Source of the DNA: a virus
DNA: 64,000 bases
Virus record (IMG/VR): IMGVR_UViG_3300045988_095709
Span: 33,509 to 97,508 of that record
Direction: 5' to 3' (one strand)
A program made the translations under genes and the position numbers. The notes beneath the pieces are model-generated. The model searched no databases, was not told the DNA's origin, and was given only the letters and a program-made list of their open reading frames with translations. Positions 22,960-64,000 of the stretch are shown here, one piece after another. How positions within the stretch are numbered: the stretch's first letter is position 1; every line of letters begins with the position of its first letter.

Positions 22960-22960
22960 T

Positions 22961-26434: not shown

Positions 26435-26435
26435 T

Positions 26436-27551: not shown

Positions 27552-27577
27552 TTTAAAATTTTAAAATACGTGCAATG

Positions 27578-27604
27578 AAGGGAGTGGAAACACTCCCTTT
27601 TTTG
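27578..27604 (+). terminator. Canonical intrinsic terminator
   Basis: AAGGGAGTG (27578-27586) pairs with CACTCCCTT (27591-27599) around a GAAA tetraloop, and the T-run continues to 27603. Confidence 0.8.
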
Positions 27605-27626
27605 TTATTATACAATTTGAAAGATT

Positions 27627-28620: not shown

Positions 28621-28621
28621 T

Positions 28622-29056: not shown

Positions 29057-29060
29057 CACT

Positions 29061-30183: not shown

Positions 30184-30184
30184 T

Positions 30185-38910: not shown

Positions 38911-38912
38911 TT

Positions 38913-40640: not shown

Positions 40641-40641
40641 T

Positions 40642-43600: not shown

Positions 43601-46600
43601 ATTTAGATTAGAATTTCTTATAGAGTTATATCGGAGAGCAAAACGGAATAACAAGTTTGGTAAATACTGAAAATTTATCAGAAGAAGAGTTAAACAATGT
43701 TTAGAAAAAATATCAAGAATTACAAAATAGATATAATAATTACATTTCTAACATAGATACGATAGCTAAGCTTGCTGCTAATATGAAAACTCTTCAAGAG
43801 ATAAAAGCTCTTGATAGACTTAACGGTAGACAGTCTTTTATACAAAAACGCGTAGAAAGAGAAGTCAATAAAATAAAACAAAATATAAATAAAATATACG
43901 AACAGCAAGGAAAGCAAGCTCATAAGATGGATACTCTTTCTGACGTAGAAGATTTTTATAAGAAAGCAGGTCTTCCTATAAGTGAGGATTATATAAATAA
44001 CATAAAAACTATAGATGAATACAAATTACAACGAGATTTATCTATAGAAAAAGCTTATAAATTTATAACAGATCCCAAATACGCTAAAAAACAACTGTCT
44101 CAATACAAAGAAACTAAAAAACAAGACGAGTATTTACAACAACAAGTTGAGTCTGACTACTATGATAAAGTTCTACACGATTATGCCGTACAAGACGCTG
44201 AAATAAACGACAGTAATAATATATATGTCGGAGAAGATGGAAAAACTTATGCGGTAAGACTGAATGTAGCAAAAGACGAAAATGGAGAAGACGTTGAGTA
44301 TTATTCTAAACATCTATATGATCCAAAAACTGACGTAATGGACAGAAGTGAACTTCCTTTCGATAAAGAAGAATGGTTCGACGGAAGAGATCAGATAGAT
44401 GATATGACGCAAATAAAATCTCCTCAACTTAGAGAAAACGACGGATCTGAAGAACGTGTAGAAGAATTTTCTAAAAGACGAGATGTAAACGAATAGAAAC
44501 AAAAATATACTCAAGATCTATTAAACGATAAGAGTAGAAATGGTTATACAAGTAGAGCGAATCGTATAGAATCTTTTGTAGATGAAAATTATTCTCCGTA
44601 CAAAAGAGGAAAACAGTATTTCTTAAAGAACGGAGAAGAAGAATTAGAGATAACAAAGACGGAATATAATTACGCTAAATGGTATAAGAAAAACTATTAT
44701 ACAGAACAACAAGAGGAAACACAAGACGATGTTCAAACCGAATAGGAAAATATAGACGGACAGCGTGATAACGTTGAACCACAGGTTTAGAAAGAAGAGA
44801 AACCTTCTGGACCAGAAGAATCTCAGAACACTGAACAAGAACAACCGATAACAAATAAAGAAGTAGAACAACCTGCGAGCGAACCTGAACAGAATCAATA
44901 GGAACAACAAGATTAGGAAGAAGATCAGAAGGTTCCAGATATAAAAATGACAGACGCTCAGAAAAATGTTATATAGGATCTTTCTCAGTTTAAGGTAGAA
45001 GGTAATAAAAAAATAAGATACGATTTGCGTTCTCCTATGGATTATTTTATAGAAGACGAAGATGGAAATATACAAGCGTATCCTAGAGTACATAGTAAAC
45101 TTAAGAAGATGTTCGAATTAGACCATACTGTATATGACAATATGAATTCTATATTCGAAGAACTTGAGAAATACAGACTTGATTTTATCGATGCATTCAA
45201 ACATAGAAATGACAATCAAGATGCCGCAGATAAATATAAAAAGTCTAAAATTTCATACATAAATAAAATAAAACAGTTACAATAGGAATACAACGAGTCA
45301 TTATTGAAAACTGTAAAAAATAATGAAAACTTGTACGATTTCTATAATGTTATTTTGGATGGATATTATTCTAACGATAATATACTAATGAGCAAATCCA
45401 CTACCGATCATATATCTAAAATAGTAGGAAATAGGATTGGTGATAAGGTACAGTTACCTGCTACTTCTGTAATATCTGGTACAATAGTTGACGAAATATG
45501 TAGAAGATGTTTTAGTGGAGAAGATGTTAAAAACGAACCGAGATTCAAAATGGACGATTCTACATTCGAACAACTTAAACAAGACATAATAGATGTAAAG
45601 TCTGACTTCGAAAGCAAAGGTTGGATACTACTTCCGCAACAATATTGTTGGTATACTGAATTAGAAGGAATAGGAAGAATCGCAGGAGAAACAGATATGT
45701 TGGCTGTTGATACTGACGGTTCTGTATATCTTATCGACTTTAAAACAAGTAAGAGATCTTATAAATACGGAACTCAAGTTAAAATTAGTGGGGATAAGTT
45801 AATCACACAACCTTCTAATTACGTAGAAGCTATAGACTGGAGTTTTGCAAAATCTAACTTTTCAGCAAGAGACGAATATAGAACACAGTTTACTTTGTAC
45901 TCTATGATGATACAACAGTGTACTATGTAGAGGCAGAAAGTAAAAACAATAAATATATTAGGATTTACCGTAAAAGCTTCTGTTTCAGATAATGATCTTG
46001 TACAAATTAAATCAATAGAAAAACCTAATTTTATAGAGTTAGAAATACAGGATGATTTGAATACTTATTTGATTTTTGACGAAGATTCTTAGAACACAAT
46101 AAGAAAAGAAAAAGAAAATTATTTAATTCTCATAAATCATATAGAAAATCAGTTACAATCTGATAAAAACTATTTAAATCAGCATTTCGATGAAATAAAT
46201 AAGAGTTCAAACTTATATAGAGAGTTAGAACAACTTTCTACTAGAACTAAAGATATAAAATCTAGAATAAATAAAATAGATATAAACAAAGATCCTGTAT
46301 CTGAATTGAAAAACATTCACGATCAATATCTGTAGTTATCTACTGATTACAGTAATGCTGTACAAAAAGTATAGGATTACTTATCTTAGAAAGCTGAACA
46401 ATATCAACAAGAACAAACACCTACAGTATCTACACAAAGTATACCTGTAGATATACAGTGGGACTTTAAAGAAATAGAAAAATACGATCGTGTATGGTAT
46501 ATAAACGTATCTAGGCAGAACGAAAAGCTTAGACAATTCAGAAGGATTACTACAAATAAAGATTTTATCGAAAACACTACTTTCTATTTGGATACAAACA

Positions 46601-49600
46601 TTAAAACGTTGATGAATCATGATTACATGATAACGTTTGAAAAAATAGTATATCACACTAAGGATCAAAACGGAAACGACGTATAGTTTGTATTAGAAGG
46701 AGATGACGCTAGAAGTGTATCTATTTACTTTGCAAAATACGATTAGGACAGAAGACCGTACGGATACGGATAGAATCCTTTAGTAAAACAAATAAAGGAA
46801 GCGTTACAACAAAACGAAGAAAACATAAAAAACAAAAACTTCCAATTAGTTTTGACAGGATTATCCAGAACAAATGGAGTCATAATAAGTCTTAAAGAAA
46901 ACAAAAATGTAAAAGACACGTTCGATTTTACAGAAGAATAGATAGAACACCTGTTAGAAAATGGTACAGACCGAGTAGGTGTTACTGATAAAATGGGTGT
47001 TGTAAAAACTATAGATAAAGCAAACAAAACTATATACGGAGACGGTATATATGCAAACTCAGGAGAACGTAGATTATCTCCTGGACAAGTAGTACTGATA
47101 CACGATTTAAAATATAACGAGGATAAAGGTAACGGCAACCATAAAATACCAATCGTACTCTTACCGAAAAAGATAACAAATGCCGATGCTGATCTTATTA
47201 TAAACCTACTGAAAGACACAAGTAAGTAGGAATTGGCTGTTACAAATTCTGGTATTGTTGGACCTATAACAAAATATTAGTTGTTATCTACACTCGTAAG
47301 ATTCGGTCGTGGTGCACAAAATACAGGAAACGATTTCGTATTTAGATACAAAGAAATAGACGGTGTTGCACAAAGAGACATTGTAGAACTACAAATCAGA
47401 GATGAAGAAGGTCAATTAATTACTACAGAATATGACTTGAATAATCCTGTATCTGTAGGTCAATTAAAACGACGTTTAGTAGAAGATGTATACTTATATA
47501 CAAATAATATATCTGTATTAAACAAGGCTACAAATAAGGCAAGAAACACAGATAAAAACAACATATTCTCACAGTTACAAGAATTCTTCGAAAACAATCC
47601 TAATATAAACTAGATAAGTTATGGAGAGAGTATGGTGTTCAATCGTGCAGACGTAGATCCTGACGGAGATGGTTCGTACAAAGGAATAACAGGATTACAC
47701 TGGATGATAAGACACGGTTGGCTTACTACTAACTACGGTGGTGTTACAGATTCTATTTTCTCGGCTACAGGAGTTTAGGGAATAATACCGAACAAACAGT
47801 AGTAGAATATAGAACAACATCCTGAACCAGAAAAAGTAGAAAATATAGACGTATAGCCAGAATAGAATGTCGGCGGAAACATAGGATACGAGAAAGAAGA
47901 TGTTGAAGATGTTAGTATAGACGACGTTAACGAACTTCTTGGTGGAGACTTTGTGGCAGACAACGAAGGTCTTTTCCATAAGCAAAAAGGAAAAGCTAAT
48001 GTAAAGATAGAAGAGAATGTAGCAAGAAGAACTATAAAACGAATTGTTGGAGACTCTATACCTTTACAGATGATAGACGATATTATATCGGTAATGTATG
48101 ATGGAGATGTTGTCGGTATGTGTACTGCAGCTAGTATATATATTTCTAGACAAGCTGAAGCCGGTACTGATTACCACGAGTCTTTCCATGCTGTTGTCGA
48201 ACTTCTTATGGATAAAAATAAGCGTGAGAGTTTGTATAAATTTACTAAGAATAAATTTAACATGCAAAACGCTACAGACGAAGAAGTTGCGGAAGCTTTA
48301 GCAGATTTATTCTTCTTATATAGTAAAGATGCTATACATTTTGAGGGAAGAATTGGAAGACTGTTCTCTTATGTAAAAGACTGGATAAATGCATTTAAAG
48401 TTACAAAAAGTTTAAGGCTTGCTAATTTGTTTGTGAATGCAGATTTTGGAAAATTCGCAAATAAAACTATAAGCAAAGAACAGGTTAACGATTTTAAAAA
48501 TAGATTCCCAAAAGGTCTTAACTTGAAAATAAAAGGTAAGAACGGAAATGGTGTAGAATTTAAACACATATACACATCTACTCAATTAGACGACGCAATT
48601 AATTATTTAGTATATCTGATAATAAAGAATGAAGGTATAAGTAGTATTGGTTCTAATCTAGACAAGTTAGATATTTCTAAGGAGCATCTTACTAATACGA
48701 AACTTGACGAAAACAACAAACCGATTTCTAATTTCGGAAAAACTTATAGAATAGTAACAATGAGCGGTAAGTCTGAATAGGAATTGGATGATTTAGTAAA
48801 AGAAGGAAAGATAACGCCTCTCGTTAAAAACAACGTGTTAATAATGAGAGAAATATTTAACAATTACGAAGACATCAAACCTATGATACTCGCAAAGTTG
48901 AAGAGCATGGGTGTTAACTCTAGACTAGACTAGGAATAGACAGAAAGAGAAAACAAAGAGGGAGACGATGTTAGTCAAATATCACGAGATGTAGATTCTC
49001 ACGCAGACGAATTCTACACACATTCGATGTCTGACGATTTATCTTCTAATATGATATTCTTCTTAAGTACTAGACCTGCATTAAGATATGCTACATAGGA
49101 GGATGTTGATAATGGAATTGTACAATCTTTGTATAAGAAAGATAGAAACGGAAACGAACAGAGAGTTTTAGTATCTTCTTCTAAAAATTCTATGGGAATG
49201 ACTACTTTCCTAGATTACAAACAAGTACACTAGTTATTATTATCAAATCTTCATGATGTGAAAGACGTTGAAGATTTATATAACAAACTTAAAAAACTAG
49301 GAAAGAACGATTATCTTTATGAAAATATAGCAAGAAGTTTATATCAATTTAGATTCCAATCTTATAAGAGATATACCAACAGAAAAGACGGAATGGATAA
49401 CGTACCTATGGTAATGTATAAAGGAAAATTATTAGATCCTAAACATTATATTTCTAATAAAAACAAATTATCATAGGAAGATCTGTATCCTAAGTTTGTA
49501 AGATGGTCTCATGATGTACTCGACAAGAACGGAAAAATAATATTCAAAGCCGGAGATGTGATACAGGGTGCAAGTATTGTGATGAATTACGATATGGAAA

Positions 49601-52600
49601 ATCTTACTACATAGTTGTTCCAATCTATAAAATCTCAAAAGTTAGATTATAACTTCTTGTATATAAGATCTGTAGTTGACGATAACGGAAAAGTTATAAA
49701 CGGAAATTATTTATATTCTTACCATCCTACCAACTACGATAGATCGCAGCAACAATATCCAATACAATGGTTTGATAACTTACGTTCTTCTTTCAGCGGA
49801 TTATTTACTAAGTCTGGAGATCTTAATAAGAATTTTACAAACTTTAAAGACTCTAAAAAATATCTTTCTGAATTGTATAACGCGTTAACGTTGGCGAAAG
49901 CTAATAACGGAAAGATTACAATAAACAAAGTAAATTACGACTTGACAAAAGGATCTGACTTAAGCGTTGTTATATCGTAGTTTGTAAAAAGTATGAGAAA
50001 CATAGGCGTAGATATAGATACCAATATGGTTCAATATTTACTACAACAGATGAACCCTGATGAACCTATGTTATACTTGGCATTCGTAGATTTAATAACT
50101 AAGGGAGGAAATAATAGTGTATACAGTATATTATAGCTTATAAAAGATAACGGTATTCTAGACTTAATGCAAAATAGGCTAGAGGCTGGAGACATATCTT
50201 TCTTTACAAAAGATCAACCTAAAAACAATAGAATACACGATAGTATAAATACCGGATCGTATGTTTATACTAAGAGTGGCTTCTTAACGTTATTGGCAAT
50301 GTGGCAAGGAAAATTTAGAACATCTACTACAGAACTTATGACAATAGGTCCTGAAAACACAAAGATGTATACTTTTGCTCAAAACCATACAGCTTCGGAT
50401 ACTATATACGATCTTAATAATTCTTATGACGAAAACGGAAATCTTGTAAAAGGATGTACACTTGAAGAGTTAAGTTAGGTGGATTATGTATTAGCTAGAG
50501 ATCAGCAAGGTAATAGAATAGGATCTATTATAGGAAAAACTCTTATGAATAAATATTGGAATCCTAATCATAATAAATTACAACTGAGAACTTCTGCTGG
50601 AACTAAATCTTCTACTTATTCTGACGAAGGATCTAAGTATTCTAAGACTACTTCTAGAGAAGACTATATGGCTAAAGTACAGATGTTGTTATAGGGAGAT
50701 ATAATATTCCCGGCATTGTCTGATAAATCTACATATTTCTCTATAAGCGGAATAAAACTTCCAGGACTTAATTTCGATAACAGTTCTTCATCGATAGGAA
50801 GTCTTCCGGTATTTAACTCAAACACTGGAACAATGATGTTTATACACAATGTGATGGAGAATTCTGATGATAAGATAAGAAGTATTGAGGATAATCCGAA
50901 AAGCGGATATAGATATAACGACGTTCTTGATTAGTTTATAGAATATTTTACTTGTGAAAATATAAATGTAAACAAAACTATAAACGACTTAGGATTGTAG
51001 GAATAGAACGCAACAAATACTCCGATATCAGAAAATCAGAAAATTACAAACTATCACAAAGGAAGTATAAATGGTGCAAGATATTTGAGTTTGATGGGAA
51101 TATACGCATTAGAAGATATGGAAATAAAGATAAACGGAAAAACTAAATCTTATAAAAAGGGAGATTATATACCGTTTAACTTTAAAGCAAATACTCCTAG
51201 TGAAGGTATACTTGAAGGAAGAAATCTTGCTCAGTCTCTTTTCTTTGACCAACCTATAGAAAAACAAAGAGTGATAGTAGCTGAAATATTAAGAAGAAGA
51301 CTTGATGATACGTTGAACGACTTGTTAGAAATGGGAATAATAAGCAAAAACGACAATGCTTCTAAAGCAAAAGGTATTGTTACTCATGATTATTATTCTT
51401 ATAAAAATAATTATTTTGACGTAGATAAGATAAACAGATTAGCTAGGTGTTATTCTAACATAGAAGGAATACAAACTTTCGGAAATTCTGCATTAGAGTC
51501 TTTAGGTGTAGTAGCGATGGCGTACGATATAATGTGTAAGAGTATGATGTCTATGGAAGAAACAAGACGTTTCTTTACGGGAATGCCTCAGTTCTTTAAA
51601 ACAAAATATTCTTCAGAAGGAAATTTAGTAGATTATGGAACAGACGAAACTAAACGTTACGGAGGTGAAGGTTCTACTGGTTCTAATAACCGTGAAGACA
51701 TGGCTAATATACCAGAAGAGTATACTTGTGCAGAGCTAAAAGATTGGGAAATTTCGTCTGCTATAAGCGAATCTTTGGAACAGGCTTTCAAAGAAGGAGA
51801 ATATAGAGAGTCGTTATCTGTATACTATAGCGAAAATCCATCGTTAGGTAAACCTTCCGACGCTTATAATATGTCTATAGAAGACGTAGAAAAAGAATTA
51901 GAAAAAACAGGAATGTTAGAAATGATTGACATGAAGATAAAAAAAGAATCTAATTCTTATAAAAGCGAAATAAACGTTACAGACGGTACTGCTTACATAA
52001 CAGATACTATGGCAGAAAATCTGTTAAGAATGCGAGGAGCGTTTAATAACGAAATAGCAGAAGCGTTTGAAAGACTGAGAGGCGATAAAGGATACCTAAA
52101 TAGTGCACAAGATTATAAACTTATACACGAAGCACTTATAAGTACATAGAAATATTCTGCTTTCGGATACAGAATGCAAAACGGAATACCGGTACACTTC
52201 TACGATAAGTTCGCATTGTTCCCAATGTTCAAAGGAATATCTTTCGGATTTAGTAGAGATCTTTATGATAAGATGCGTAAAGAGGGTGTAGATATGGTAA
52301 TGTTTAATTCTGCTGTAAAATCTGGATCTTAGGGTGCGTAGAAGTTCTCTCCTGATATGACAAAAGAAGATTTATAGAAGTTTACATTTAAAAACAATAT
52401 CTATAAACAAAAGTATAAGTACATAAGAAGGCAGTTGAATACAGATCCTAGAACTGATGAAGTAATGGCTGCAGGAACACAGGCTATGAAGGTTTCTCTC
52501 AGTGTACTTAGAGATTGGCAAACATATTCTATACAAAATCCTGACGGAACGGAACAAACTTTGAATAAAAACGAAGTATTGAGTGCTATAATGGACAGGA

Positions 52601-55600
52601 TGAACAGAATGGCTGAAATAGGAAGTCAGTAGATAAAAGAAGAATTCTTTACCAACGGAAAGCTAGATTACGCAAAATTAAAAGATTTCATAGTAAGAGA
52701 ACTTTCTAGTAGAAATGCCGATAAGAATATACTTGAAGCTGTCAATTTGGATTATCTTACTGACGAGAACGGAAATATAATTCCGGAAAGCGTACATTTT
52801 GTTACTGACATAAACGTAGTTTCTAATATGGCATGGATAGAAAGTATATTGATATCACATATAAATAAAAAAGTAATAGATATTAATTTTAAAGGAAATG
52901 CTTTCTATCAGAGATCCGTGTTTGGTCTTGATAGCCCTACTGTATTAAACGACGATTAGGTAAAATACGAAATGAATGGTGGTAAACCTCTGCAGATGAT
53001 AAATGAAGAGGGAAGTATGGACGCAGTAATAAGTATAGACTACTTTATGGATATTATACCTAAGAAATATAGATATAATTTCAAAAAAGCAAAACAATGG
53101 TTGATTGACAACGATATTATATCTGGTATAAAAACAGGAACAAAAGAGTGGAATAATGCTAAAGCTAGTGTGTTATCATACCGTATTCCTACTCAGGCGG
53201 CATCTTCTATTCACGCGTTAAGATTTGTAGACGTATTACCAATCGTTAGAGATACTATAATACTACCTAGAGAGTTTACTAAGATTACTGGTTCTGACTT
53301 CGATATTGATAAATTGTATTTATCGTCTTTCTATTATAATGTAAACAAAGAAACCGGAAAGTCATCTTTGATAATGGACGACGAATATGAAAATACAGCA
53401 AATCAACTTCTTTCTATATATCTTTCTTTGATTAAAGATGCTGGAAAACAAGTTACAGACGGAAAAATATCTAAGTCTAGATACATGCATATATTGAACA
53501 GATCTATTGATAACGATACAGAGTTGATAACCAATGTTCTTTCTGATATAGAATCTGGAAAAACTAAAAAGACCGTAGAGCCATATCAATTTGAAAATCT
53601 AACCAATCAAGTAAAGATAAAACAATCATTTGCTACAGGTAAACTCGGAATAGGACCGTTTGCGTTGAATAACAACAATCAGGTACTTACTATGTTGTAC
53701 AACGTTTCTTTCAAAGATTTTGGAGACAACGATAAAAGTTTATTAACTTATATCGGAATGAACAGGTTAGATAGGATTACAGATATAAACGGAAACCATA
53801 TATTATCGTGGATATCTGCGATGATAAACGCACACGTGGACGTTGCGAAGGATCCGTATATATTAAGATTAAATGTAAATAAATTTACATATAATCTAGT
53901 AAATCTACTTATACGTTGTGGTCTAGGAGATAGAGCTTTATATTTCATCAACAACCCTATAATAAAAGATTTAGCTAGAATAAGTGAAGAAACGCAAGGA
54001 AGAATAGTTGATGAACCGGAAATAAGCGTAAGAAAAAGGTTTGAAAACGCTTAGGAACAGTATATACGTGACTGTAAGTTTAGAGATGAGTCTTTTTCTA
54101 AGTTGTATATGAAAGCTAAGGACGAAGAAAAAAGAGCTGCTGAAAAGAAAGATTTTGATAAAATCGCAGAAATAATGGGAATGGATAGAGACGGTCTTCC
54201 AATAAATAGTATTAAAATATTTAAAGACGGTCAGTATTATACTGTTGATGGTACATATATAATGAGAGACATTTTAAAAAATAAAGACGTACTCATAGAT
54301 GAAAACAAACCGTTAAGTATGGATAATCTTAGAGACGACGATCAGTTTTATTACGTGTTGGAAGGTGATAGAAGAGTTACTCCAAAAGAAGTTTAGATGT
54401 ATATATTCTTAGCTATGCAAAATTTAAACATAAATGCAGCGGCTCTTTCTGCAGTAGTACAGGCTACTAAAGTAGACACTAAAAAGCACGGTAAAACTGT
54501 AAGAGAACAATCAGAATATAATGCTAAATACGAATAGTTATTAAGAGGTGGTATATCTAACATGTTTGAAAATTTGGATAACATGTTGACAAAATCTTAT
54601 ATAAACGTTAAAACTAATCTCGGAATAGGTATTCCTAAGAAAATTCTTTAGGAGTTTTCTATAACAGCTACAGACAATTTTAGATACGTAGTGGATTCTA
54701 TATGCTCTATGTACTTAAACAACTAGACTTCTAAAACTAAAACATCGATACAGAATGCTGTTCTCGCATACGTTAAACAGATTGCTATGAATAAAGCTAT
54801 GGAAGATAACGGAATAACTAGCGAAAAGTGGATGGAGATGATACAAGGAAGAAAAACGTTAGCACAGAGAATAACAAACCTTCAGAACATATTGATTTCG
54901 GATGTAGATGGTAAATATAAATCTTTAGCTACTAACGGAACAATAATAAATCCATTACTTGCTAATTTGCGAAGAATTCCATATCAACCACAATACGGAC
55001 AGGTTCACTACGATCTTATAGGGTTAGAAAACAAAGGAGCTGACGATAGTGAATTGAGTAATAACTATATTGATGCATGGTAGCAACTTTTAGATTATGA
55101 TGATCCTCAATATCCAAAAGAGTCTGAAGCTATAAGGAAGCTAGCTAGCGATCTTGCTGTTTATGCGTTTGTGACATCTTCTGATACTAAAGGAACAAAT
55201 AAATTTTTCAAATATGTTCCTGTTTCTTGGAGAAATGATTTTGGGTATTCAGAGTATATAAGATAGGCTTTTTAGTACTTTAAAGACGGAAACGTAAAAG
55301 TACAAGAAGATGCTGAAGATGGATTTTTAACTATAGATCCGTACGAATTAATAATGAATAACTATATGGATCCTAATATTCTACCTACACATAAGATGAA
55401 TAAGTTTATGGGATCTTCTTATCAGTATAGTGAAACGGATTTCTAGGGAAAGATTATAACAAGTAATATATACACAATGATTGCAGGTCTTGTTAACGAT
55501 AGACCTACAATGTATAAATCTGAATACATTACACAATATCCTCCTTTTGTCAGAATACAAAGACCAAATACCAATAGATTTTCTGCAGATTAGTATTTGT

Positions 55601-56760
55601 TGTATAGACTTGCTGCTTACGGTACTAAAACGTTATCTGACGGTAAACAGGTATCTTATCCTGTATATATACTTTTAAATCCTAAAGGTCAGAGAGTTAA
55701 AATAGGTGCTCAAAATTATGATTTCTATTCTGTAGGAAGAGACGATAATTATCAGCACGATTTCTTAAAAGGTGAAACTCCAAACTTCTTAGAAAAAGTA
55801 AAATGGATATAGAAAAACATAGAAAAAATACAGGAGTTGAGAGCAGCTAAAACAGCAACAGTAGGAGACGTGAGATAGTTGTTCGACATACCGGCAGGAG
55901 ATAGTTATTCTATACAAACGTTCGGAAATATATAGAGAACAGTATATCAAAATGAAAAATACGGAAATATAGGAGAAGCTGAAATACAACACGACTAGTT
56001 ACAATTAGAGCTCGGACCATATGGTGAATGGGAAATAAAAGGCGATAATACTTCTAAATTTGATACAAACAAAGCATTAGATACATACACATTGCATTCT
56101 GGTGGAGCAAAAGGTTCAGACTCTTACTGGGGAACAGCAGGAGAGAAATACGGCTTATTGTACGACGATAAACACCAAAGACACTATTATCACCAAGAAA
56201 AAACTCCTGTAGGAAATGTAGAAATATCTAATTAGGATTACGAAGAAGGAAGATACAAGGCAGCATAGGCTGCTTCAGCAAGATGGGGATATAACTTGAA
56301 AACAATGAAAGATAATAGATTGATTAGAAATTGGGCTCAGGTTAAATATTCAGATGCAATATTTGCAATAGGAACTCTTGTTAAACCCGGACAACCGATA
56401 GATCCAAACAACAATAAAGAAACAAGAATTGCTAAGAAAGTAATAGTTTCTGGAGGTACCGGATATGCTGTAGAGATGGCTATACAAGCTGGTAAACCTG
56501 TATACGTATTCGATTAGAGGAGAAACAGATGGTATAAGAACATAGACGGAAAATGGTCTAAATCAGATATTCCTGTACTTACTAAAAATTTCGCAGGTAT
56601 CGGAACTAGAGAGTTATAGGATAACGGAAAATAGGCTATAGAAGACGTATATAAAAAGACTATAGAATAGATGTAGAAGAACTCTACTAATTAGGATATC
56701 GATATCAATATAGAAGATTTCAGTAATCTAAACGAATAGAGACATGAACAATGTGATTAA
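40642..56760 (+). CDS. Giant multidomain virion protein (5372 codons) containing an RNA-polymerase-type DxDxD motif
   Basis: I read frame 1 codon by codon across every gap between 25 same-frame track ORFs, from ATG 40642 to TAA 56758-56760. TAG was the only stop. The last upstream in-frame stop is TAA 40609-40611. Embedded signatures are annotated separately below. Confidence 0.8.
45304..45930 (+). other. PD-(D/E)XK (RecB/Cas4-type) nuclease domain inside the giant protein
   Basis: The sequence ...GETDMLAVDTDGSVYLIDFKTSK... (D-F-K at 45736-45744) is followed by ...RTQFTLYSMM..., which fits the QxxxY motif typical of RecB-family nucleases. Confidence 0.55.
48100..48310 (+). other. Candidate zincin metallopeptidase motif inside the giant protein
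   Basis: HESFH (48175-48189) fits HExxH. It is followed 35 residues later by EALAD, which fits the ExxxD third-ligand motif of gluzincins. Confidence 0.4.
52972..54054 (+). other. Putative catalytic region of a crAss-type virion RNA polymerase
   Basis: The motif ..TKITGSDFDIDKLY.. places DFDID at 53296-53310. This DxDxD metal-binding motif is analogous to NADFDGD of multisubunit RNAP beta-prime, and lies within a very large virion-module protein as in crAss-like phages. Confidence 0.55.
56092..56514 (+). other. SLOG / DprA / DUF2493-like Rossmannoid domain at the C-terminus of the giant protein
   Basis: The signatures are LHSGGAKGSDSYWG ... NRLIRNWAQVKYSDAIFAIG ... VSGGTGYAVEMAIQAGKPVYVFD. 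These fit the GGAxGxD and GGTxxxxxxA..GKPV pattern. Confidence 0.45.
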
Positions 56761-56772
56761 AATTATTAAATT

Positions 56773-59700
56773 ATGGTATGTATAATAGAGAGTAAATATT
56801 AGAAAGAAATAGAAGATCTTACTGGTATAATTGGAGACAGGGAGACTGCTATATCACTATTATGCGCAAATAACGGGTTCACCTTAGACAAAACACCCTA
56901 GGGTGAACCGTCAGATTTGTATCAATAGTTATTAGGACAGTTCTCAAACGACGAAGCAGGAAGAAGACGTGCTATTATATACAAAGCTAGAACGTTCGGA
57001 AGTTCTTTCGTTAATAAGTATGGAAAATGGTTTGAATAGGACGCATAGTCGTAGAATAACAATTTTGACTCTAACGGTGAACCTGTTTTAAGTATAGTAC
57101 TTGGTGATAAAAATTTGTTTCAAAATAGTACGGAGTAGGATTTTTCACAACTTAAGAGAGAGTATGTCAGTCGTTTAGTAAACGAACTTCTTTTTGAAAA
57201 CCCAAACGCTAGTCAAATAGAAATACTAAACAAAGAAATAGAAGCACAGCAAGAGTGGGCTAATCAATAGGCTAATCAGTTGGACGAAGATGTTGAAATG
57301 TCCAGAATAGACGCAGAAGATACAAAAAGACTATTGAAAAACGAGAACATATTGATTGGGAAGGCTAGTAAATCTGTAATATAGATGTTTAGAAAAGCAA
57401 AAGAAAGAGCTAAAAAACTTAGAGAAAATCTAAACATAAAAAGTCTAAATCTGAAAGATGACTTATCAAACAAAATAGACGAGACAGCCAACCAGATAAT
57501 ATCTGCAACTATAAGTAAGGAAAAGGCTTATAAATCTAAAAACTTCTCTTCTTCTACTTCTTATGGAGATATAAACTAGTAGATATAGAACTAGGAAAAT
57601 TCTAGAAAAATACGTGGATATAGAAAAAGTATAATAGAAGCACAAAATAGTAAAAATGCAAAGAAAGAATTAGATGCAAAACTTGAAATGTTCTTGTATT
57701 TTATAGAAAATGCATCTGACGAAATAAATAAAATATTATCAATGCTTCTTAATGCTGAGGCTAATGAGTATAAAAAGATATATTATAAAGTAGATAGCGT
57801 TGGAAATATAATATACAACGATGAAAACAATAAATATTACACCGAACAAAACGAAAAAGAAGGTGTACAATACGGTACGTTTGATTTTAACGACCTTCAG
57901 TATATAAACACTGATGTTATTGGATTTTACGACGGTGTACTACATAATATATTATTGATATTAGACTAGCTTGACGAAAATGATCCGAAAGTTAAATTGC
58001 TTAAAGACTCCATAAGAATTTCAGATGTATGCAATAATATATTTTCAGCTAAAAGAAAGTATCAGATAGCTCTAGAAAATAAAGTAATGGATATGGTCAG
58101 AGAAGGTCTTGACGAAATTCCAGAAGAAAGACTAGACTCTGAAATGAAAGCAAGATTGATAGTAAGAACTAAAAAATGGCTTAGAAATCAGTACGATTTT
58201 GGTGATGTTACTGTATTCGAAAGAGTTATAGGAATAGGAAGTAGATCTAAAAGTTCACTGATAAGACTTATTCAGGAAGTAATAAACTAGATAGAAAACG
58301 AAATACGTATAGAAACAAGTAAGAAAGGTTTTAAATTAAATGATCTATACAGAAAAGCGTTAAATAAAAACAAAAAATATATGCTTCCCGGTATGAGTTT
58401 GCAGTAGTTACTGATGGGTAAAGACAGAAACGGTTTACCAAACGGAGATTTCGTAAGACCTATAAATTACAGACAGTATCAACAAGATTTAGAGAACATT
58501 TAGGCTGAATTACTATTTGGAAAAGATGGTATTAGAGACCGAATTGCAAATCTAAAAGACGATAGTGGTAATTATATATTCAGATATCCAGATACGAACA
58601 CTTACGAAATAGAATTTGATGAACACGGAGAACCAATATTACCAAATCATCCAAAACTAGAACAAGCATATAAGAATTACTATAAGAAACTGGAGTCTTG
58701 GAAATGCGATCATTCTGAAAGACCGTATACTAAAAAATATTATATTGAAAGGTTGGATCATTTGTCTATATCTACTATACAAATGATGAATAAGTTGTAT
58801 AGTGGAAGAAACGAGATAATACAAGCTGCTACAGTAGACGGATAGTTCAGACCTGATAAACTTTCTGATTTCTAGTTAGACGAGCTGAATAGATACAATC
58901 AAGAAATACAACAGTTGTCCAGTCCTTTTTATATTGACGGAACAGAAAAAGATCCTTACACTCCAGAAGGAATTGCAGCTAGAGAGATAAGTAGTTGGCA
59001 AAATACAATATCTGACCACATAAAATATAAGACTAGTATTGAAAAGTACAATCAAGCATTATCTTTTGCGAAAGATAAGAAAAAATTTGCTAGATTGTTC
59101 AGTAAGTGGATAATAAATCCTAAATTATACGAATGGTTGGATGATGATTTTCAGATGAATAATTCGTACGTCAAATCTCTTAAAAAGACCATTAATAAAC
59201 TTATGGCTCCGTACAAAACAGATAAAATCGGAGAAGTCAAATGGGATATGCTTTTTGATTTTGAAACTGGAAAAATCAAAAATGAGAAATGGTTTGAAAG
59301 TATGATTGAAGTTTCTAAAAGATATAGTGAAGAAATATCTTTATAGTATAAAGATTATTCTAACGAAGATGATAACGGTGGTACAAAATATAATGAACTA
59401 ATAGACGAGGTGTATGTACCAAAACCAGGATTTCAGTACGATTTTTCATATACTTATGAAAACTCTATGCTTAAATACATGAAAGATGCGTATTAGAATT
59501 ACTTGGTAGAAAACAAAGGTTATAGTACACAACAGGCTAGTTCTATCGCTGCGAATACATTTTCGTATACTTATATGACAGCAAAGGGTAAACTTATAAG
59601 TAAACCTATTTCAATATTTATGATGCGCGTTCCTAAAGAAAAGAAACAATTTAAAGGTATAGATGGAAATTATTACAAATCTTTTATAAGAACGCCTTCT

Positions 59701-62073
59701 TCTATGTTTTCAGAGATAGATTTAGAAAACTCTTCTAGTGATTATATAAATAAAAATTACGATAGACAGTCAGATTAGACTTTACAACCAAAAGAGTCTA
59801 TATATAGAGATGAAAACTATTATAAATATATAGAAGGAAAGAAAGAGATGAAAGAATTGTACGATGAATTAATTAGTACAATGGAACAATCTTTTTAGAA
59901 CTATCCTTTTGTGAAGAAATATGATTATAGATTGCCACAGAGAGGAGAAACAAGAAATTCATCTATACTTTCTAGAAATCTATTGACAAGATTGGGTGTA
60001 AACGTAGGAGAAGTTTTAGATAGAACTCTGTCTGTAAACGAAAACGATTTGGATATAAATTTCCAAGAATAGGTATTACGACCAGATGGAACACCTATTA
60101 AAAATATACCAATAAGGTGGATAAGAAGACTTAGTAAACCTGAGTATATATCTTCAGATATAATAGGTTCTGTTACTTTAATGTATGGAATGTCTGTAAA
60201 CTATAAATTAAAAAATCAAAAAGTTTCTCAAGTAGAGTCTATTTTAAACTATATAAGAAGTAACGATCCTAGTAGTTCTTCAAAATAGGCAGAAGCTATA
60301 CAAGGAATGATAGATAGACAATTCTATGAAGAACAGACATCTGGACTGAAAGTAAATCCGACGCCAGAATAGTGGAAACATGCTGATTGGTTTAGAAGAT
60401 ATTTCTGGAGTGCTAAATCATGGTTGAAAAAAGTAGGACAAATAAGAGGTATCGCATAGTTAGGTATGTTGGCATTCAACTTAGGTTCTGGTATAGTTTC
60501 GTCTTTAGACGCTACTACTAGTATGGTTATAGACGTTCTTACTGGAAAATATATAAACTATAAAGACTTATCTTATGCATTCAGCCAGTTAATGTTTGAT
60601 TTACCTAAAGCTATAAACAGCTTAGGTAAAATAAAAACCGATAGTGATATATGCGCTCAGATGTAGTATTTTGGACTAGCAAAAGGAAACGCTCAGACGT
60701 TTAGAAACACCGATTATAGTAAACTGAGAAGATTTTTATCTGACGGATTACTTATGAAACAATTTGCAATAGGCGATTATACAATCAACGCTTTAAATAT
60801 GACATCTGTACTATATAATTATAGATTGTATGTAGATTAGGATGGAAAACGTCAACTATTAAATAAACCTGACTTCATAAGAAAGGCTATAAACGACGGA
60901 ATGACATATAAACAAGCCAAAAGTGCTTATAATTCCGCAAAGATAGCAAAACGTTTCCTTAAACGTGGAAAAGACGGCATGATTACTGTAGATAAAGAGT
61001 TTGAAAAGGATATGTACAGAATAGGACAGTAGATAAGAAGTAGATCGTCAATATACAACGGTGTTATAAATGATGCTGAACGTACATATTTCCAATCTAA
61101 TGTGTGGTTGTCTTTGATATCAATGCTTCGTAATTTCTTTATAGTAGGTATTTGGGAAAGATTTTAGACTTATCGAGATTTTCAAATGAGTGTCGAATAG
61201 ACTTTTGATCCTGAAACAGGAGAGATACTAAACGAATACGGAGGAGAAAATTTAAATCCTCAACAAGCTGCCAATATAAAGAAAGAATAGAGATATTATG
61301 CAGGAGGGTACAACTTCGATACCGGACAGATAGAAAACGGAACAACATTATCGTTCTTTAGATACTTATCTAAACTATATCCTTATCTTAAGTATTCAAC
61401 AGACGTAATATTCTCAGGAATGAGTAAGTACGATCCACAAAGAGAGTAGTACTTAAAAAATAACAATCTAAACGCGTAGGAAATATACGGAGCTTAGAAA
61501 ATAACTATGGAATTTACAGCAGCGATGTTATTTATATTAGCCAGTGCAAGTATATATAGAATAGCTAAAACAAAAGATCCAGATGACGATGATGCTTATT
61601 TGTGGTATCTTATCAACTATGTTATGGTTCGTCTCCCTATCGAAAGATTTACGTGGATGTCGTTAGATACAGTGAATGACCTTATAAATTCTATCACAGC
61701 AGCTTCTTCTGATTTAAAACGAAAAGGACATTTGATAGATATGGTTATGGAAGCGTTAGGATTAAGTAAGCACAAACTCACTGACGAAATGCCTTCAAAC
61801 AGTCAATATGCAGGTCAACAGCGATGGTTTTATCATCTTTGCAACATCGGTTCTAGTTTTGGTTTGCATAACTACTATGTTAATATGCCTAAAGCGTTAG
61901 GTGGAGGAGGAGCTAAACCTTTGATGCGTAAAGCATATTTCTATTATGATAAATTACCATTTGGTAATTATATTTACGATAGAGGTAAAAAGACAGACAA
62001 AGTAGATAAAAGAAAAAAGAATGTCGGAGTTTCTGTTATTAGCGATGACAGTAATGACGGATTTGATAGATGA
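56773..62073 (+). CDS. Second giant virion protein (1766 codons), function unknown
   Basis: I read frame 1 codon by codon from ATG 56773 to TGA 62071-62073 and only TAG interrupts it, first at codon 10. The C-terminal third has hydrophobic segments (60466-60560, 61507-61575). Confidence 0.75.
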
Positions 62074-62133
62074 CAAAAATATAACAATAGTATTTTGGTC
62101 GTATTTTAGCGGGACGCGAATATTATAAAAAAC

Positions 62134-62182
62134 AAAGGAGACTATAATTCCGATTTTTTCGGAACTATAATCTCCTTTTTTT
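62134..62182. terminator. Bidirectional intrinsic terminator at the convergence of the plus and minus transcription units
   Basis: AAAGGAGACTATAATTCCG (62134-62152) pairs with CGGAACTATAATCTCCTTT (60160-62178 region, 62160-62178), giving 19 bp with 2 mismatches. A T-run lies downstream on the plus strand and an A-run upstream, which is a T-run on the minus strand. It overlaps the last codons of the minus-strand gene 62142-62660. Confidence 0.7.
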
Positions 62183-62660
62183 GTAATCTATGCGAATCGC
62201 TTATCGTGTATTGAAAATCTATTTCAGGCACGGATTCAACTTCAAAATTATATTTGTTTTCAGAAGGATTCAATACGTATTTAGTAAAATTAATATCCGA
62301 TGTTCCCCAGAATTTTAATATAATTTCTGGTTTATAAATCATCGGATACACACTTTTTATCATGCGTTTTACTAAATGATCGACAGTTTGAATCGCATAG
62401 ATTGTATAGGATTTTCCATTTATCATGTATACTTTTGAACTTCTTAGATTTTTAAGCTTTAAGAATTTAAAGTATCTTTCCTGACTATCTATTGTTTTTA
62501 TAGAATTATCGTACATTAAAAAGATACAATCAAAAATAGCCGGTCTGTTGATATCGTAATTATACGCATTAACAAAACCGGCTGAATAGCTAAAATCCTT
62601 TTGTGAAATTGCAGTACTACTAAATAATAAAGGAATTATAGCTTTTATTTTAACAGACAT
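62142..62660 (-). CDS. Hypothetical protein (172 aa), standard code, TAG stop
   Basis: The ORF is uninterrupted and its stop codon is TAG (complement of 62142-62144). The N-terminus is hydrophobic and signal-like (MSVKIKAIIPLLFSSTAISQ). Confidence 0.7.
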   Translation of the reverse strand: MSVKIKAIIPLLFSSTAISQKDFSYSAGFVNAYNYDINRPAIFDCIFLMYDNSIKTIDSQERYFKFLKLKNLRSSKVYMINGKSYTIYAIQTVDHLVKRMIKSVYPMIYKPEIILKFWGTSDINFTKYVLNPSENKYNFEVESVPEIDFQYTISDSHRLQKKEIIVPKKSEL

Positions 62661-62667
62661 ATTGATT

Positions 62668-63699
62668 CTAAGATTCTAATGTTTCAAACCCGTTATTGTT
62701 ATAATATTCTAAATGATGATCCCACTTATTATTAGCATAATGCCAACAAATTTGTGATAACGAGTCATTTACTGTTTTTTCTCTACTTTGTATTTGTTCT
62801 TTAGTGATTTTAAATACACGTATTTCTGGTAATACGGATGTACTTATGCAAATAATATTACAGTCGAATTTCCATTCTTCTGCGTTTTCACCAAGAATGT
62901 TTTCTAAAAACCATTTTGTAGCTTTTATGTAAAAACAAATTTGTCTGAAATAATCGTATTCTTTAACACTATCTTCAAAATGACCTATTTTATTAGTAGT
63001 TTTCAAATCAGAAATTGTACAAATTTTATTTTTAAAATTAAAATTTATACTGTCAAGTAACGATTTACAGTTTATTACTCCGTATTCTGTTTTAAACTCC
63101 CAATCGATTCGGAATTCATGATATGTTACTCCTTCTGTAGGATATAATATCTTATTTGCAGCTTTATGCTGTTTTACTAAATATTCTAAAAGTAATAGAT
63201 TCGTTTTAGAATTTTTAGTTATGAGTTCTACTTTAGGATATTTGGTCTTAATATCTATGTAATTCTTTAGCTTATTGGCTATTTCCTTTGCTTTAGACAG
63301 TATCAAATCGTTCGAGCTTCCAGTTGTCTTATACGATGATTTATAAGCGCTTAGAAGCGATTTATCAGGCATTATTTCTACGCTATTAATTAGCATACTA
63401 CAAAACTTTTCCTGATTTACTGATTGCGGTTTTTCACCGTTGAACACCATATAATTCTTATCAAACTCTTCTGGTTGTAATAAAAACATATGTATCATTG
63501 TTCCTTTTGATAAATACTCAGTAGATATAGTATCGAAAGTTCTATCATTTAATTTTTTATATAAATACGCAGGACCATTTTTCAAAAAATAACCAACATC
63601 ACTATTACTTATCTTGCAACTAGAATAATATTCTGTTTCAGTATTAAGATTAGTAATGTATTGATTTATCTTTTCTATTTGTAATTCTTCGTTATTCAT
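62668..63699 (-). CDS. PD-(D/E)XK exonuclease (RecB/Cas4/YqaJ-like), replication/recombination module
   Basis: This uninterrupted 343-aa ORF contains ...CTISDLKTTNK... (D-x-K core) followed by ...YFRQICFYIKA (QxxxY). Its stop codon is TAG (complement of 62668-62670). Confidence 0.65.
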   Translation of the reverse strand: MNNEELQIEKINQYITNLNTETEYYSSCKISNSDVGYFLKNGPAYLYKKLNDRTFDTISTEYLSKGTMIHMFLLQPEEFDKNYMVFNGEKPQSVNQEKFCSMLINSVEIMPDKSLLSAYKSSYKTTGSSNDLILSKAKEIANKLKNYIDIKTKYPKVELITKNSKTNLLLLEYLVKQHKAANKILYPTEGVTYHEFRIDWEFKTEYGVINCKSLLDSINFNFKNKICTISDLKTTNKIGHFEDSVKEYDYFRQICFYIKATKWFLENILGENAEEWKFDCNIICISTSVLPEIRVFKITKEQIQSREKTVNDSLSQICWHYANNKWDHHLEYYNNNGFETLES

Positions 63700-63707
63700 A
63701 TAAAAAA

Positions 63708-64000
63708 TTAATTCTGAATTTCAATATTCAAATCGTTTAGAAGATCTAACTCCTTAGAATCTGGATATAACTGTACTTCGTATAAAAAGTTAATAATATT
63801 ATCAAAACTTTTAACTTTGAATTTGTTAATTAAATCCAAACATCTTATTTGTTTCTTTTCATCGTCCTTTATTATTTCGTTTATGAGATTTGATATACTA
63901 TTGTTATCCAATCCTTCAAACTTCTTATAATATCGAATACGAGAACAACGATCTATCAGATTTTCATTAGCAAAATTTTCATCGTTACAAGTAAATAATA
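63708..64000 (-). CDS. Hypothetical protein, 5' end outside the window
   Basis: The frame stays open upstream of the track's TTG start (63911) to the window edge. The stop is TAA (complement of 63708-63710). Confidence 0.55.
   Translation of the reverse strand, partial: LFTCNDENFANENLIDRCSRIRYYKKFEGLDNNSISNLINEIIKDDEKKQIRCLDLINKFKVKSFDNIINFLYEVQLYPDSKELDLLNDLNIEIQN

What the first reader, a model, noticed from the sequence alone, without database searches (positions are those of the whole stretch)
62074..64000. Genetic-code boundary: convergent minus-strand genes use TAG as a stop and contain no internal TAG
The three minus-strand genes visible here (172 aa, 343 aa, and a partial gene of at least 97 aa) are uninterrupted under the standard code. 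Two of them terminate with TAG (complement of 62142-62144 and of 62668-62670). Across the bidirectional terminator, plus-strand genes carry TAG roughly once per 25-85 codons. This pattern is what a temporal code switch would produce. Early replication and recombination genes would be read with the host code. Late virion and lysis genes would become translatable only once TAG suppression is established. The sample of three genes is small.
Basis: partly seen in the sequence, partly recalled or inferred. Interest (0 to 1): 0.8.

Follow-up and report, generated by a model that had tools for sequence, protein, structure and literature searches.

The report
Genetic-code boundary in a crAss-like phage
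The window is most of a crAss-like gut phage genome. Its virion genes read TAG as glutamine, while the replication genes at the right end still use TAG as a stop; this two-code layout is real but already well described for this phage group.

Summary
Minus-strand genes 62142-62660 (172 aa) and 62668-63699 (343 aa) end in TAG. With the partial gene 63708-64000 they hold 611 codons, no in-frame TAG and 30 off-frame TAG.

The plus strand (119-62073) is a 33-gene late module with 326 in-frame TAG in 20,397 codons. It is 98.7% coding only if TAG is read as sense. TAG aligns with Gln in homologues.

The window is a Crassvirales phage (Suoliviridae/Oafivirinae-like). The 343-aa protein is a PD-(D/E)xK exonuclease. 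Six homologues end at exactly the column of its TAG, so the TAG is a true stop.

Two 96-97% identical assemblies complete the circle at about 97.4 kb. The rest of the replication module there has no in-frame TAG in 7,922 codons.

It is supported but not new.

Two refinements came out. The boundary is not purely by strand. And this lineage's apparently missing suppressor exists, just outside the window in a relative. It is a tRNA(CUA) gene split in the anticodon by a ~1-kb HNH-encoding group-I-like intron. I rebuilt the same split gene in 26 IMG/VR contigs and found no report of it in the searchable library.

The parts
119..62073 (+). Late (virion, packaging, lysis, virion-RNAP) module read with TAG as Gln. 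It holds 33 genes, including TerL 4379-6442, portal 6445-8940, MCP 11723-13243 and a 5,372-aa giant protein 40642-56760.
   Evidence: Coding coverage is 98.7% with TAG as sense and 45.9% under the standard code. There are 326 in-frame TAG in 20,397 codons, and every gene ends in TAA or TGA. Gln lies opposite TAG at 22 of 70 well-aligned sites, against a 3.9% background. MCP is 83-89% identical to Oafivirinae phages.
56773..62073 (+). Last late gene (1,766 aa, 36 in-frame TAG, TGA stop). It converges on the replication module.
   Evidence: The syntenic gene in cr272_1 is gp22.
62134..62178 (.). Bidirectional intrinsic-terminator hairpin of up to 20 bp, flanked by an A-run and a T-run. It overlaps the 3' end of the 172-aa gene.
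   Evidence: Terminator scan. Folds at -25.1 and -30.4 kcal/mol, z = -8.3 and -9.4.
62142..62660 (-). 172-aa conserved hypothetical protein with a hydrophobic N-terminus. It has a true TAG stop at 62142-62144 and a back-up TAA at 62106-62108.
   Evidence: Homologues in cr124_1 (168 aa), cr130_1 (164 aa) and cr272_1 (160 aa) end within 1-2 residues of the TAG.
62668..63699 (-). 343-aa PD-(D/E)xK exonuclease (DUF3799, RecE/exonuclease VIII-like). It has a true TAG stop at 62668-62670 and a back-up TAA at 62650-62652.
   Evidence: Pfam PF12684, E = 5e-8, above the curated cut-off; phrog_412, E = 4e-18. All 34 phage tblastn hits end at query residues 341-343. Six annotated homologues end in the same alignment column with TGA or TAA.
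63708..64000 (-). 3' part (96 aa) of an ATPase gene with a TAA stop. It is 257 aa in the 96.5%-identical relative.
   Evidence: phrog_2376 ATPase, E = 9e-9. The synteny ATPase-exonuclease-hypothetical is the same in cr272_1, cr7_1, cr124_1, cr130_1 and Dulem virus 42.
23..58 (+). 16-bp hairpin between the tRNA cluster (just upstream of the window in the relative L028) and the first TAG-containing gene. It may be a terminator or attenuator separating the TAG-free leader block from the late block.
   Evidence: Fold at -24.1 kcal/mol, z = -5.7. Context is from L028.

Best explanation
Positions 62074-64000 are the convergence point of the two expression modules of a TAG-recoded crAss-like phage (order Crassvirales, close to Suoliviridae/Oafivirinae).

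The plus-strand module (119-62073) encodes virion, packaging, lysis and cargo proteins. It can be translated only if UAG is read as glutamine.

The minus-strand genes are the tail end of the replication/recombination module: ATPase, PD-(D/E)xK exonuclease and a small conserved protein. They are written so that the host's standard code reads them correctly. They have no in-frame TAG, and TAG is used as an ordinary stop.

Because each TAG stop is followed within 5 and 11 codons by TAA, these genes give nearly the same protein once suppression is on. This is the 'dual-coded', soft-switch arrangement.

The two modules end at a shared bidirectional hairpin terminator.

The inferred mechanism is as follows. 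After infection, the TAG-free genes are translated by the unmodified host apparatus. A phage tRNA(CUA) gene lies at the 5' end of the plus-strand block. In this lineage it is interrupted by a group-I-like intron that must be spliced out. The mature tRNA is charged with Gln and out-competes RF1. Only then can the TAG-rich late genes be translated.

Shown here: the code partition, the TAG-to-Gln signal, the true TAG stops, the gene functions, the terminator, and the position and structure of the suppressor gene in 96-97% identical relatives.

Inferred: the timing, the splicing, the charging, and the presence of the same tRNA in the window's own genome.
For: - Code partition.
- Gln opposite TAG.
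- Crassvirales identity and synteny.
- Exonuclease and ATPase family hits.
- The C-termini of homologues coincide with the TAG stops.
- Relatives at 96.5% nt identity (IMG/VR contig) and 96.9% nt identity (ENA contig) close the circle at about 97.4 kb. The rest of the minus-strand module has 45 standard-code ORFs and 0 in-frame TAG in the 7,922 codons tallied. It has 331 off-frame TAG, and its stops are TAA 27, TGA 11, TAG 7.
- Functions there include DNA polymerase, primase and helicase by synteny with cr272_1, and ThyX.
- A suppressor tRNA(CUA) lies at the head of the plus-strand block. It is intact in cr272_1 and cr124_1 and split in the close relative L028.
- The published model and data are identical in kind: PMC7886860, Borges et al., Mgcod, metaproteomics PMC9523058.
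Against: - No expression data exist for this phage, so 'early' and 'late' are taken from crAss001 and phi14:2 through the review PMC10136315.
- The window itself contains no tRNA. The suppressor is seen only in relatives.
- The partition is not strictly by strand. A conserved minus-strand gene has 7 in-frame TAG (L028 4378-4896). A ~4-kb plus-strand leader block has none.
- Three late genes, MCP among them, have no TAG.
- The back-up stops 5 and 11 codons downstream are about what an AT-rich sequence gives by chance. My own estimate is a mean of about 21 codons. They are therefore not evidence of design.
Confidence: 0.85

Rival explanations
1. There is no switch. The whole phage is always read in code 15, because the suppressor is constitutive or supplied by the host. 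The replication genes simply happen to lack TAG, and the two 'TAG stops' are always read as Gln, with the downstream TAA as the real stop.
For: Both TAG stops have an in-frame TAA within 5 and 11 codons. The RefSeq annotation of cr272_1 treats every TAG as sense.
Against: - Six exonuclease homologues and three homologues of the 172-aa protein end at the TAG column with TGA or TAA.
- There are 0 in-frame TAG in 7,922 codons, against 1.6% in late genes and 331 off-frame TAG. This is strong purifying avoidance, which makes sense only if TAG is read as stop at some time.
- The extensions NQYVC and SPLFFIIFASR have no conserved counterpart.
Confidence: 0.07
2. The asymmetry is a by-product of strand-specific base composition, or of calling ORFs with the standard code. 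It would then not be a coding-rule difference.
For: The window has a strong A-over-T excess on the plus strand (25,093 A against 18,420 T). An ORF called in code 11 cannot contain TAG by definition.
Against: - Off-frame TAG is common in the minus-strand genes: 30 in the three window genes and 331 in the module.
- Standard-code ORFs cover 77% of the minus-strand module but only 46% of the plus-strand block.
- TAG positions align with Gln in homologues.
- Gene ends are fixed by homology.
Confidence: 0.02
3. The window is a chimeric assembly of a recoded phage and a standard-code phage, joined near 62.1 kb.
For: None beyond the abruptness of the change.
Against: The same junction, with the same genes on both sides, is present in an IMG/VR contig (96.5% identical across window 52668-64000). 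It is also present in the reference genomes cr272_1, cr7_1, cr124_1, cr130_1, Bohxovirus and Dulem virus 42.
Confidence: 0.01

Closest known systems
TAG-to-Gln (code 15) recoded crAss-like phages with late-gene-restricted recoding: delta group / Suoliviridae, e.g. cr272_1, cr7_1, cr124_1 (Yutin et al. 2021, PMC7886860; Borges et al. 2021/2022; Peters et al. 2022)
   Same: - Same gene order, hallmark proteins and convergent module architecture.
- TAG is in-frame only in the structural/lysis block.
- The replication block is standard-code compatible.
- Gln lies at TAG positions.
- The suppressor tRNA(CUA) sits at the head of the recoded block.
   Different: - TAG density is about three times that of cr272_1 (1.6% against 0.56% of codons).
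- There is no megablast match in INPHARED.
- Exonuclease identity is only 42-45%.
- In this lineage the suppressor gene is intron-split rather than intact.
'Dual-coded' early block with a soft switch of genetic code (Pfennig et al., Mgcod, bioRxiv 10.1101/2022.06.29.495998)
   Same: - The code switch coincides with the switch of coding strand.
- Early genes give almost the same protein in code 11 and code 15. [quoted passage not shown]
   Different: That paper reports 78 of 303 complete code-11/15 genomes without a detectable Sup-CTA tRNA. Here the 'missing' tRNA is found as a split gene. One TAG-rich gene sits inside the early strand.
Bacterial group I introns in tRNA anticodon loops: cyanobacterial tRNA-Leu(UAA), and tRNA-fMet with its intron-encoded endonuclease (Hausner et al. 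2014, PMC3984707)
   Same: - Insertion is in the anticodon loop.
- The last exon nucleotide is U, and the last intron nucleotide is G in most copies.
- The core has the order P3, P4-P6, P7, P3', P8, P7', including the P3/P7 pseudoknot.
- Intron-less alleles exist in relatives.
   Different: - The host gene is a phage amber-suppressor tRNA.
- The intron carries a ~300-aa HNH endonuclease ORF.
- It lies between anticodon nucleotides 35 and 36.
- The Rfam group I model does not score it.
- About a quarter of copies have A instead of G as the last intron base.
- That review states that all phage group I introns known by 2014 were in protein-coding genes.

Membership tests
Code-15 (TAG to Gln) recoded Crassvirales with block-wise code use | Crassvirales hallmark genes and synteny (MCP, TerL, portal, giant virion RNAP-like protein, PD-(D/E)xK nuclease) | tested here: met
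   MCP tblastn matches 149 crAss-like records, the best at 83-89% identity. The exonuclease matches 34 records. Synteny with cr272_1 is shown.
Code-15 (TAG to Gln) recoded Crassvirales with block-wise code use | Low coding density under code 11 that is restored when TAG is read as sense, in one block only | tested here: met
   The plus-strand block goes from 45.9% to 98.7% coverage. The minus-strand module is already 77% covered by standard-code ORFs.
Code-15 (TAG to Gln) recoded Crassvirales with block-wise code use | In-frame TAG aligns with glutamine in homologues | tested here: met
   Gln at 22 of 70 well-aligned sites, against a 3.9% background. TAG is shared with cr272_1 at 5 further sites.
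Code-15 (TAG to Gln) recoded Crassvirales with block-wise code use | The replication/early block is free of in-frame TAG and may use TAG as a stop | tested here: met
   0 of 611 codons in the window. 0 of 7,922 codons in the composite, with 7 of 45 stops being TAG. Gene ends are confirmed by homologues. One exception gene has 7 TAG.
Code-15 (TAG to Gln) recoded Crassvirales with block-wise code use | Phage-encoded suppressor tRNA(CUA) at the 5' end of the recoded strand | tested here: inconclusive
   There is no tRNA in the window. In the 97%-identical relative L028 no intact tRNA(CUA) is found. A split gene is found there, with exons 8086-8120 and 9093-9129, which gives a canonical tRNA(CUA) after removal of 972 nt. 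It occupies the slot held by the intact gene in cr272_1 and cr124_1.
Code-15 (TAG to Gln) recoded Crassvirales with block-wise code use | Temporal separation: the TAG-free genes are expressed first and the TAG-containing genes later | not testable with these tools
   This needs time-resolved transcriptomics, Ribo-seq or proteomics. It is supported only by analogy with crAss001 and phi14:2 and by metaproteomics of other recoded crAss-like phages.
Group I intron (the insert in the tRNA(CUA) gene of relatives) | Conserved core helices in the order P3, P4-P6, P7, P3', P8, P7', with the P3/P7 pseudoknot | tested here: met
   In 16 diverse copies, 98.7% of cells are paired. 22 of 44 pairs show changes on both sides. 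Slid controls give 35-48% paired and at most 5 such pairs. P7 pair 121/155 is AU in 9 copies and GC in 7. The helix names are my assignment, from general knowledge of group I architecture.
Group I intron (the insert in the tRNA(CUA) gene of relatives) | U as the last exon nucleotide and G as the last intron nucleotide | tested here: inconclusive
   The exon ends in ...CTCT (TTCT in one) in all rebuilt copies. By my reading, the last intron base is G in about 19 IMG/VR copies plus L028 and L031, and A in about 7 plus Bohxovirus L030. A P1/internal guide pairing could not be identified.
Group I intron (the insert in the tRNA(CUA) gene of relatives) | Match to the curated Rfam group I model (RF00028) | tested here: not met
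   No hit at E <= 1 on L028 7900-9900, nor at E <= 10 on the 256-nt core.
Group I intron (the insert in the tRNA(CUA) gene of relatives) | Self-splicing that yields a ligated, functional tRNA | not testable with these tools
   The in-silico spliced product is a canonical cloverleaf. Exon stems covary between copies, e.g. the anticodon stem GGAGG/CCTCT against GTGGG/CCCAC. An in vitro splicing assay or junction-spanning RNA reads are needed.
PD-(D/E)xK exonuclease, DUF3799 / RecE-like (gene 62668-63699) | Pfam PF12684 hit above the gathering score across the domain | tested here: met
   33.4 bits against a cut-off of 26, covering residues 40-329. phrog_412 'exonuclease VIII', E = 3.6e-18.
Bidirectional intrinsic terminator (62134-62178) | A stable hairpin followed by a U-run on both transcripts | tested here: met
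   Termination activity itself was not tested.

The most novel reading that the evidence does not exclude
In this lineage the code switch depends on an amber-suppressor tRNA(CUA) whose gene is interrupted. A ~1-kb group-I-like intron that encodes an HNH homing endonuclease lies between anticodon nucleotides 35 and 36. The suppressor would then exist only after RNA splicing.

Three consequences would follow.
1. It would explain a share of the 'recoded phage without suppressor tRNA' cases reported for Suoliviridae and other crAss-like phages. Standard tRNA finders miss the split gene.
2. It would be a group I intron in a phage tRNA gene, a class stated to be unknown in 2014.
3. It could add a splicing-dependent delay to the switch.

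The element lies just outside the window, about 0.75-1.8 kb upstream of window position 1 in the 97%-identical contig ERZ857521 NODE_215.
Probability: 0.5. Interest if true: 0.6.

Novelty: new member of a known kind. Interest (0 to 1): 0.3.

Why it matters
For the finding as given, the result is a clean, well-controlled example of the two-code architecture of recoded crAss-like phages. It is useful for annotation: these 64 kb must be called with code 15 on the plus strand and with code 11 at the right end. It does not change understanding.

The by-product may matter more. Several papers list recoded Suoliviridae and crAss-like genomes with no detectable suppressor tRNA. They invoke host suppressors or undetectable tRNAs (PMC7886860; Mgcod preprint; bioRxiv 10.64898/2026.08.21.746148). 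An intron-split tRNA(CUA), rebuilt in 26 IMG/VR contigs, gives a concrete and testable answer for part of that gap. It also shows that tRNA surveys of phages need intron-aware searches.

Tried and rejected
**Searches that found nothing**
- Megablast of window 60000-64000 against INPHARED gave no match.
- An exact-protein look-up of the exonuclease was not on record.
- An exact 39-nt pattern from the window start was absent from IMG/VR.
- The tail-fibre protein had no relative in IMG/VR. It was found in ENA metagenome contigs instead.

**Search for an intact suppressor tRNA in the composite genome**
- Default ARAGORN, relaxed ARAGORN, Rfam and a hand-made anticodon-loop scan all found no intact tRNA(CUA).

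**Other candidates for the decoder, considered and rejected**
- A weak tRNA-like sequence with a 6-nt anticodon loop UUUUUA (L001 256-324; Rfam 30.8 bits). It has no CUA, and it would read UAA if anything.
- tRNA-Met(CAU) and tRNA-Gly(UCC), next to the window start.
- A permuted-tmRNA-like hit.
- A host-supplied suppressor. This is not needed once the split gene is seen.

**Details of the split tRNA and its intron**
- ARAGORN's own intron call gave the anticodon CGA or CTT, because it places the intron one base off. The boundary after ...CTCT is the only one that gives the same anticodon in all copies and matches the intron-less alleles.
- The Rfam group I model does not detect the intron.
- I could not identify P1 or the internal guide sequence by eye.

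**Other checks**
- The 5- and 11-codon distances to the back-up TAA are not shorter than chance in this AT-rich genome. I do not count them as evidence.
- Pfam and PHROGs give nothing for the 172-aa protein.
Full report
**1. What the window is**

GC content is 32%. With the standard code, ORFs of at least 100 aa cover 31 kb of the plus strand. With TAG read as sense they cover 63 kb. Reading TAG as sense turns positions 119-62073 into 33 tightly packed plus-strand genes. They cover 98.7% of the stretch, against 45.9% under the standard code. They contain 326 in-frame TAG in 20,397 codons, and all end in TAA or TGA.

The 506-aa protein at 11723-13243 is a crAss-like major capsid protein. It is 83-89% identical to cr272_1, cr7_1, Bohxovirus and Dulem virus 42, which are Crassvirales of the family Suoliviridae, subfamily Oafivirinae. 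TerL, portal and a 5,372-aa giant protein follow in the usual order.

At positions where the window has TAG and cr272_1 has a sense codon, Gln is by far the commonest residue. It occurs at 22 of 70 well-aligned sites, against a 3.9% background. TAG supplies 31% of the Gln codons in this block. The plus strand is therefore a code-15 late module.

**2. The observation**

- 62142-62660(-) encodes 172 aa and ends in TAG.
- 62668-63699(-) encodes 343 aa and ends in TAG.
- 63708-64000(-) is open to the window edge.
- The 611 codons hold no in-frame TAG but 30 off-frame TAG.
- At the late-block rate, the probability of no TAG is 5e-5.

An ORF defined under code 11 cannot contain TAG, so I looked for independent support.
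- The 343-aa protein is a PD-(D/E)xK exonuclease (Pfam DUF3799 above its cut-off; phrog_412, E = 4e-18). The partial gene is an ATPase (phrog_2376).
- All 34 phage tblastn hits to the exonuclease stop at query residues 341-343.
- In an alignment with the annotated homologues of cr7_1, cr124_1, Bohxovirus, Dulem virus 42, cr130_1 and cr272_1, every protein ends in the same column as the window's TAG (...ETLNL* against ...ETLES*). Their stops are TGA or TAA.
- Homologues of the 172-aa protein (160-168 aa) end within one or two residues of its TAG.

The TAGs are real stops.

The hairpin at 62134-62178 is very stable on both strands (z = -8 and -9) and has U-runs on both sides. It overlaps the last 12 codons of the 172-aa gene.

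**3. Extending to the whole genome**

No near-identical record exists in INPHARED. Two assemblies do exist.
- An IMG/VR contig is 96.5% identical over window 52668-64000 and continues 25 kb beyond the window end.
- An ENA contig (ERZ857521 NODE_215) is 96.9% identical over window 3-9057. It bridges back to the IMG/VR contig.

Together they give a collinear circle of about 97.4 kb.

The minus-strand module (composite 62142-93113) has 45 standard-code ORFs covering 77% of the stretch. In the 7,922 codons tallied there are no in-frame TAG and 331 off-frame TAG. The stops are TAA 27, TGA 11 and TAG 7. By synteny with cr272_1 it holds DNA polymerase, helicase, primase and a RecA-like ATPase. It also holds ThyX.

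A 171-aa minus-strand ORF (L028 4378-4896) has 7 in-frame TAG. It is a real gene, conserved in 8 related genomes over 84-96% of its length in single tblastn pieces.

Conversely, the first ~4 kb of plus-strand genes upstream of the window are TAG-free. They include a DUF7399 protein, an HU-like protein, an HNH endonuclease and dUTPase. Within the late block, MCP (P = 3e-4) and two other genes have no TAG.

The boundary at 62.1 kb is genuine, but the rule is by gene or expression class, not by strand.

**4. Mechanism and what is known**

Late-gene-restricted TAG-to-Gln recoding in crAss-like phages was described by Yutin et al. 2021. [quoted passage not shown]

Replication machinery is in the standard code and structural and lysis genes are recoded. 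The suppressor tRNA is made first and late genes are translated afterwards.

Pfennig et al. (Mgcod) showed three relevant things.
- The code switch follows the switch of coding strand.
- The early block is 'dual-coded'.
- The Sup-CTA tRNA sits at the 5' end of the recoded strand.

Peters et al. gave metaproteomic proof of TAG as Gln, and found no recoding in early-region peptides.

The window is thus a new member of a well-described kind. The two TAG-terminated genes would gain only 5 and 11 residues under suppression. That fits the soft-switch picture, although such short distances to the next stop are expected by chance in this AT-rich DNA. Timing, charging with Gln and competition with RF1 are inferences from that literature, not from this sequence.

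**5. The suppressor tRNA**

The window has no tRNA. In the composite genome, ARAGORN and Rfam find only tRNA-Leu(UAA), tRNA-Met(CAU), tRNA-Gly(UCC) and a weak tRNA-like sequence. The Met and Gly genes end 25 nt before window position 1. No tRNA(CUA) is found.

cr272_1, cr124_1 and cr7_1 carry an intact tRNA(CUA) immediately upstream of dUTPase. At that slot, L028 has a 298-aa HNH endonuclease ORF flanked by two tRNA halves.
- Exon 1 is 8086-8120 and ends ...GGAGG-CTCT.
- Exon 2 is 9093-9129 and starts AAC-CCTCT.
- Removing the 972 nt between them gives a canonical cloverleaf with anticodon CUA. It is nearly identical to the intron-less cr124_1 gene.
- The exon ends in U and the insert ends in G.

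A 24-nt degenerate pattern from the insert's core hits 47 IMG/VR contigs. In 26 of them the same operation rebuilds a tRNA(CUA) across an insert of about 970-1,003 nt at the same position. Several more show the 3' tRNA half but lack upstream sequence.

An alignment of 16 diverse cores supports seven helices in the order expected for a group I intron, including the P3/P7 pseudoknot.
- 98.7% of cells are paired.
- 22 of 44 pairs show compensatory changes.
- Slid controls give 35-48% paired and at most 5 such pairs.

Points against or unresolved:
- The Rfam group I model gives no hit.
- I could not find P1.
- In a Bohxovirus-like subgroup the last intron base is A, not G.

No paper in the searchable library describes an intron-split suppressor tRNA in phages. 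A 2014 review states that all phage group I introns then known were in protein-coding genes. Three papers list missing suppressors in recoded crAss-like phages as unexplained.

This element lies outside the window and outside the finding. I report it as the most novel reading and as something noticed in passing, not as the verdict on the finding.

**6. Verdict**

The phenomenon is already established, and this genome is a new member of it. Interest in the finding as submitted is low to moderate.

Noticed in passing
L028 8086-9129 (ERZ857521 NODE_215; about 0.75-1.8 kb upstream of window position 1). Also L030, L031 and 26 of the IMG/VR loci L037-L083.: The amber-suppressor tRNA(CUA) gene is split between anticodon nucleotides 35 and 36 by a ~970-1,000-nt insert. 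The insert carries an HNH endonuclease ORF and a covarying group-I-like core. Intron-less alleles exist in cr124_1, cr7_1 and cr272_1. Default tRNA finders miss the split gene.
   Followed up: yes
L030 (Bohxovirus PV686213.1) 868-1916; L037, L045, L053, L054, L060, L069, L078: In this subgroup of the split tRNA(CUA) genes, the base before the 3' exon is A rather than the G expected for a group I intron. No alternative boundary restores both a G and the CUA anticodon. It is unexplained.
   Followed up: partly
L028 4378-4896, minus strand (composite 91917-92432): This is a conserved 171-aa gene on the 'early' strand, the second gene from the divergent region. It has 7 in-frame TAG (4% of codons). 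Homologues occur in 8 related genomes, including cr272_1 gp63, which has 1 TAG. It is an exception to the rule that strand equals code.
   Followed up: partly
L028 5515-9860 and window 1-118: A ~4-kb plus-strand leader block has no in-frame TAG. It holds a DUF7399 protein, an HU-like protein, the HNH/split tRNA and dUTPase. tRNA-Met(CAU), tRNA-Gly(UCC) and a 16-bp hairpin (window 23-58) follow, just before the first TAG-rich gene. The hairpin may separate middle from late transcription.
   Followed up: partly
window 11723-13243, 16313-17371, 30849-31301: The major capsid protein (506 codons) and two other late genes contain no TAG, although they lie inside the recoded block. For MCP, P = 3e-4 at the block's rate. 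cr272_1 MCP and the five genes after it are also TAG-free.
   Followed up: partly
L024 7767-7945 (= L002 2173-2351; early module of the 96.5% relative); cr272_1 193-562: There is a permuted-tmRNA hit (Rfam RF04321) at 47.6 bits, just above its gathering score of 47. ARAGORN also calls a permuted tmRNA there, and RefSeq annotates one in cr272_1. It could be a real structured RNA or a false positive.
   Followed up: no
L001 256-324 (= L002 9914-9982): A tRNA-like sequence scores 30.8 bits in Rfam. Its acceptor and T arms are good, but its anticodon loop has 6 nt (UUUUUA). Default ARAGORN misses it. It is not an amber suppressor, and its function is unknown.
   Followed up: partly
Composite 74690-76663 (about L002 6700-8650) and 87874-88631 (about L028 340-890): Two stretches of about 2.0 and 0.76 kb inside the replication module have no convincing ORF on either strand in either code and no Rfam hit. 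GC content is 34% and 39%, against 32% overall.
   Followed up: no
window 62134-62178: The shared terminator hairpin is partly coding. Its 5' arm, loop and half of its 3' arm (minus-strand sense) encode the last 12 codons of the 172-aa protein, and its TAG stop lies in the 3' arm.
   Followed up: yes
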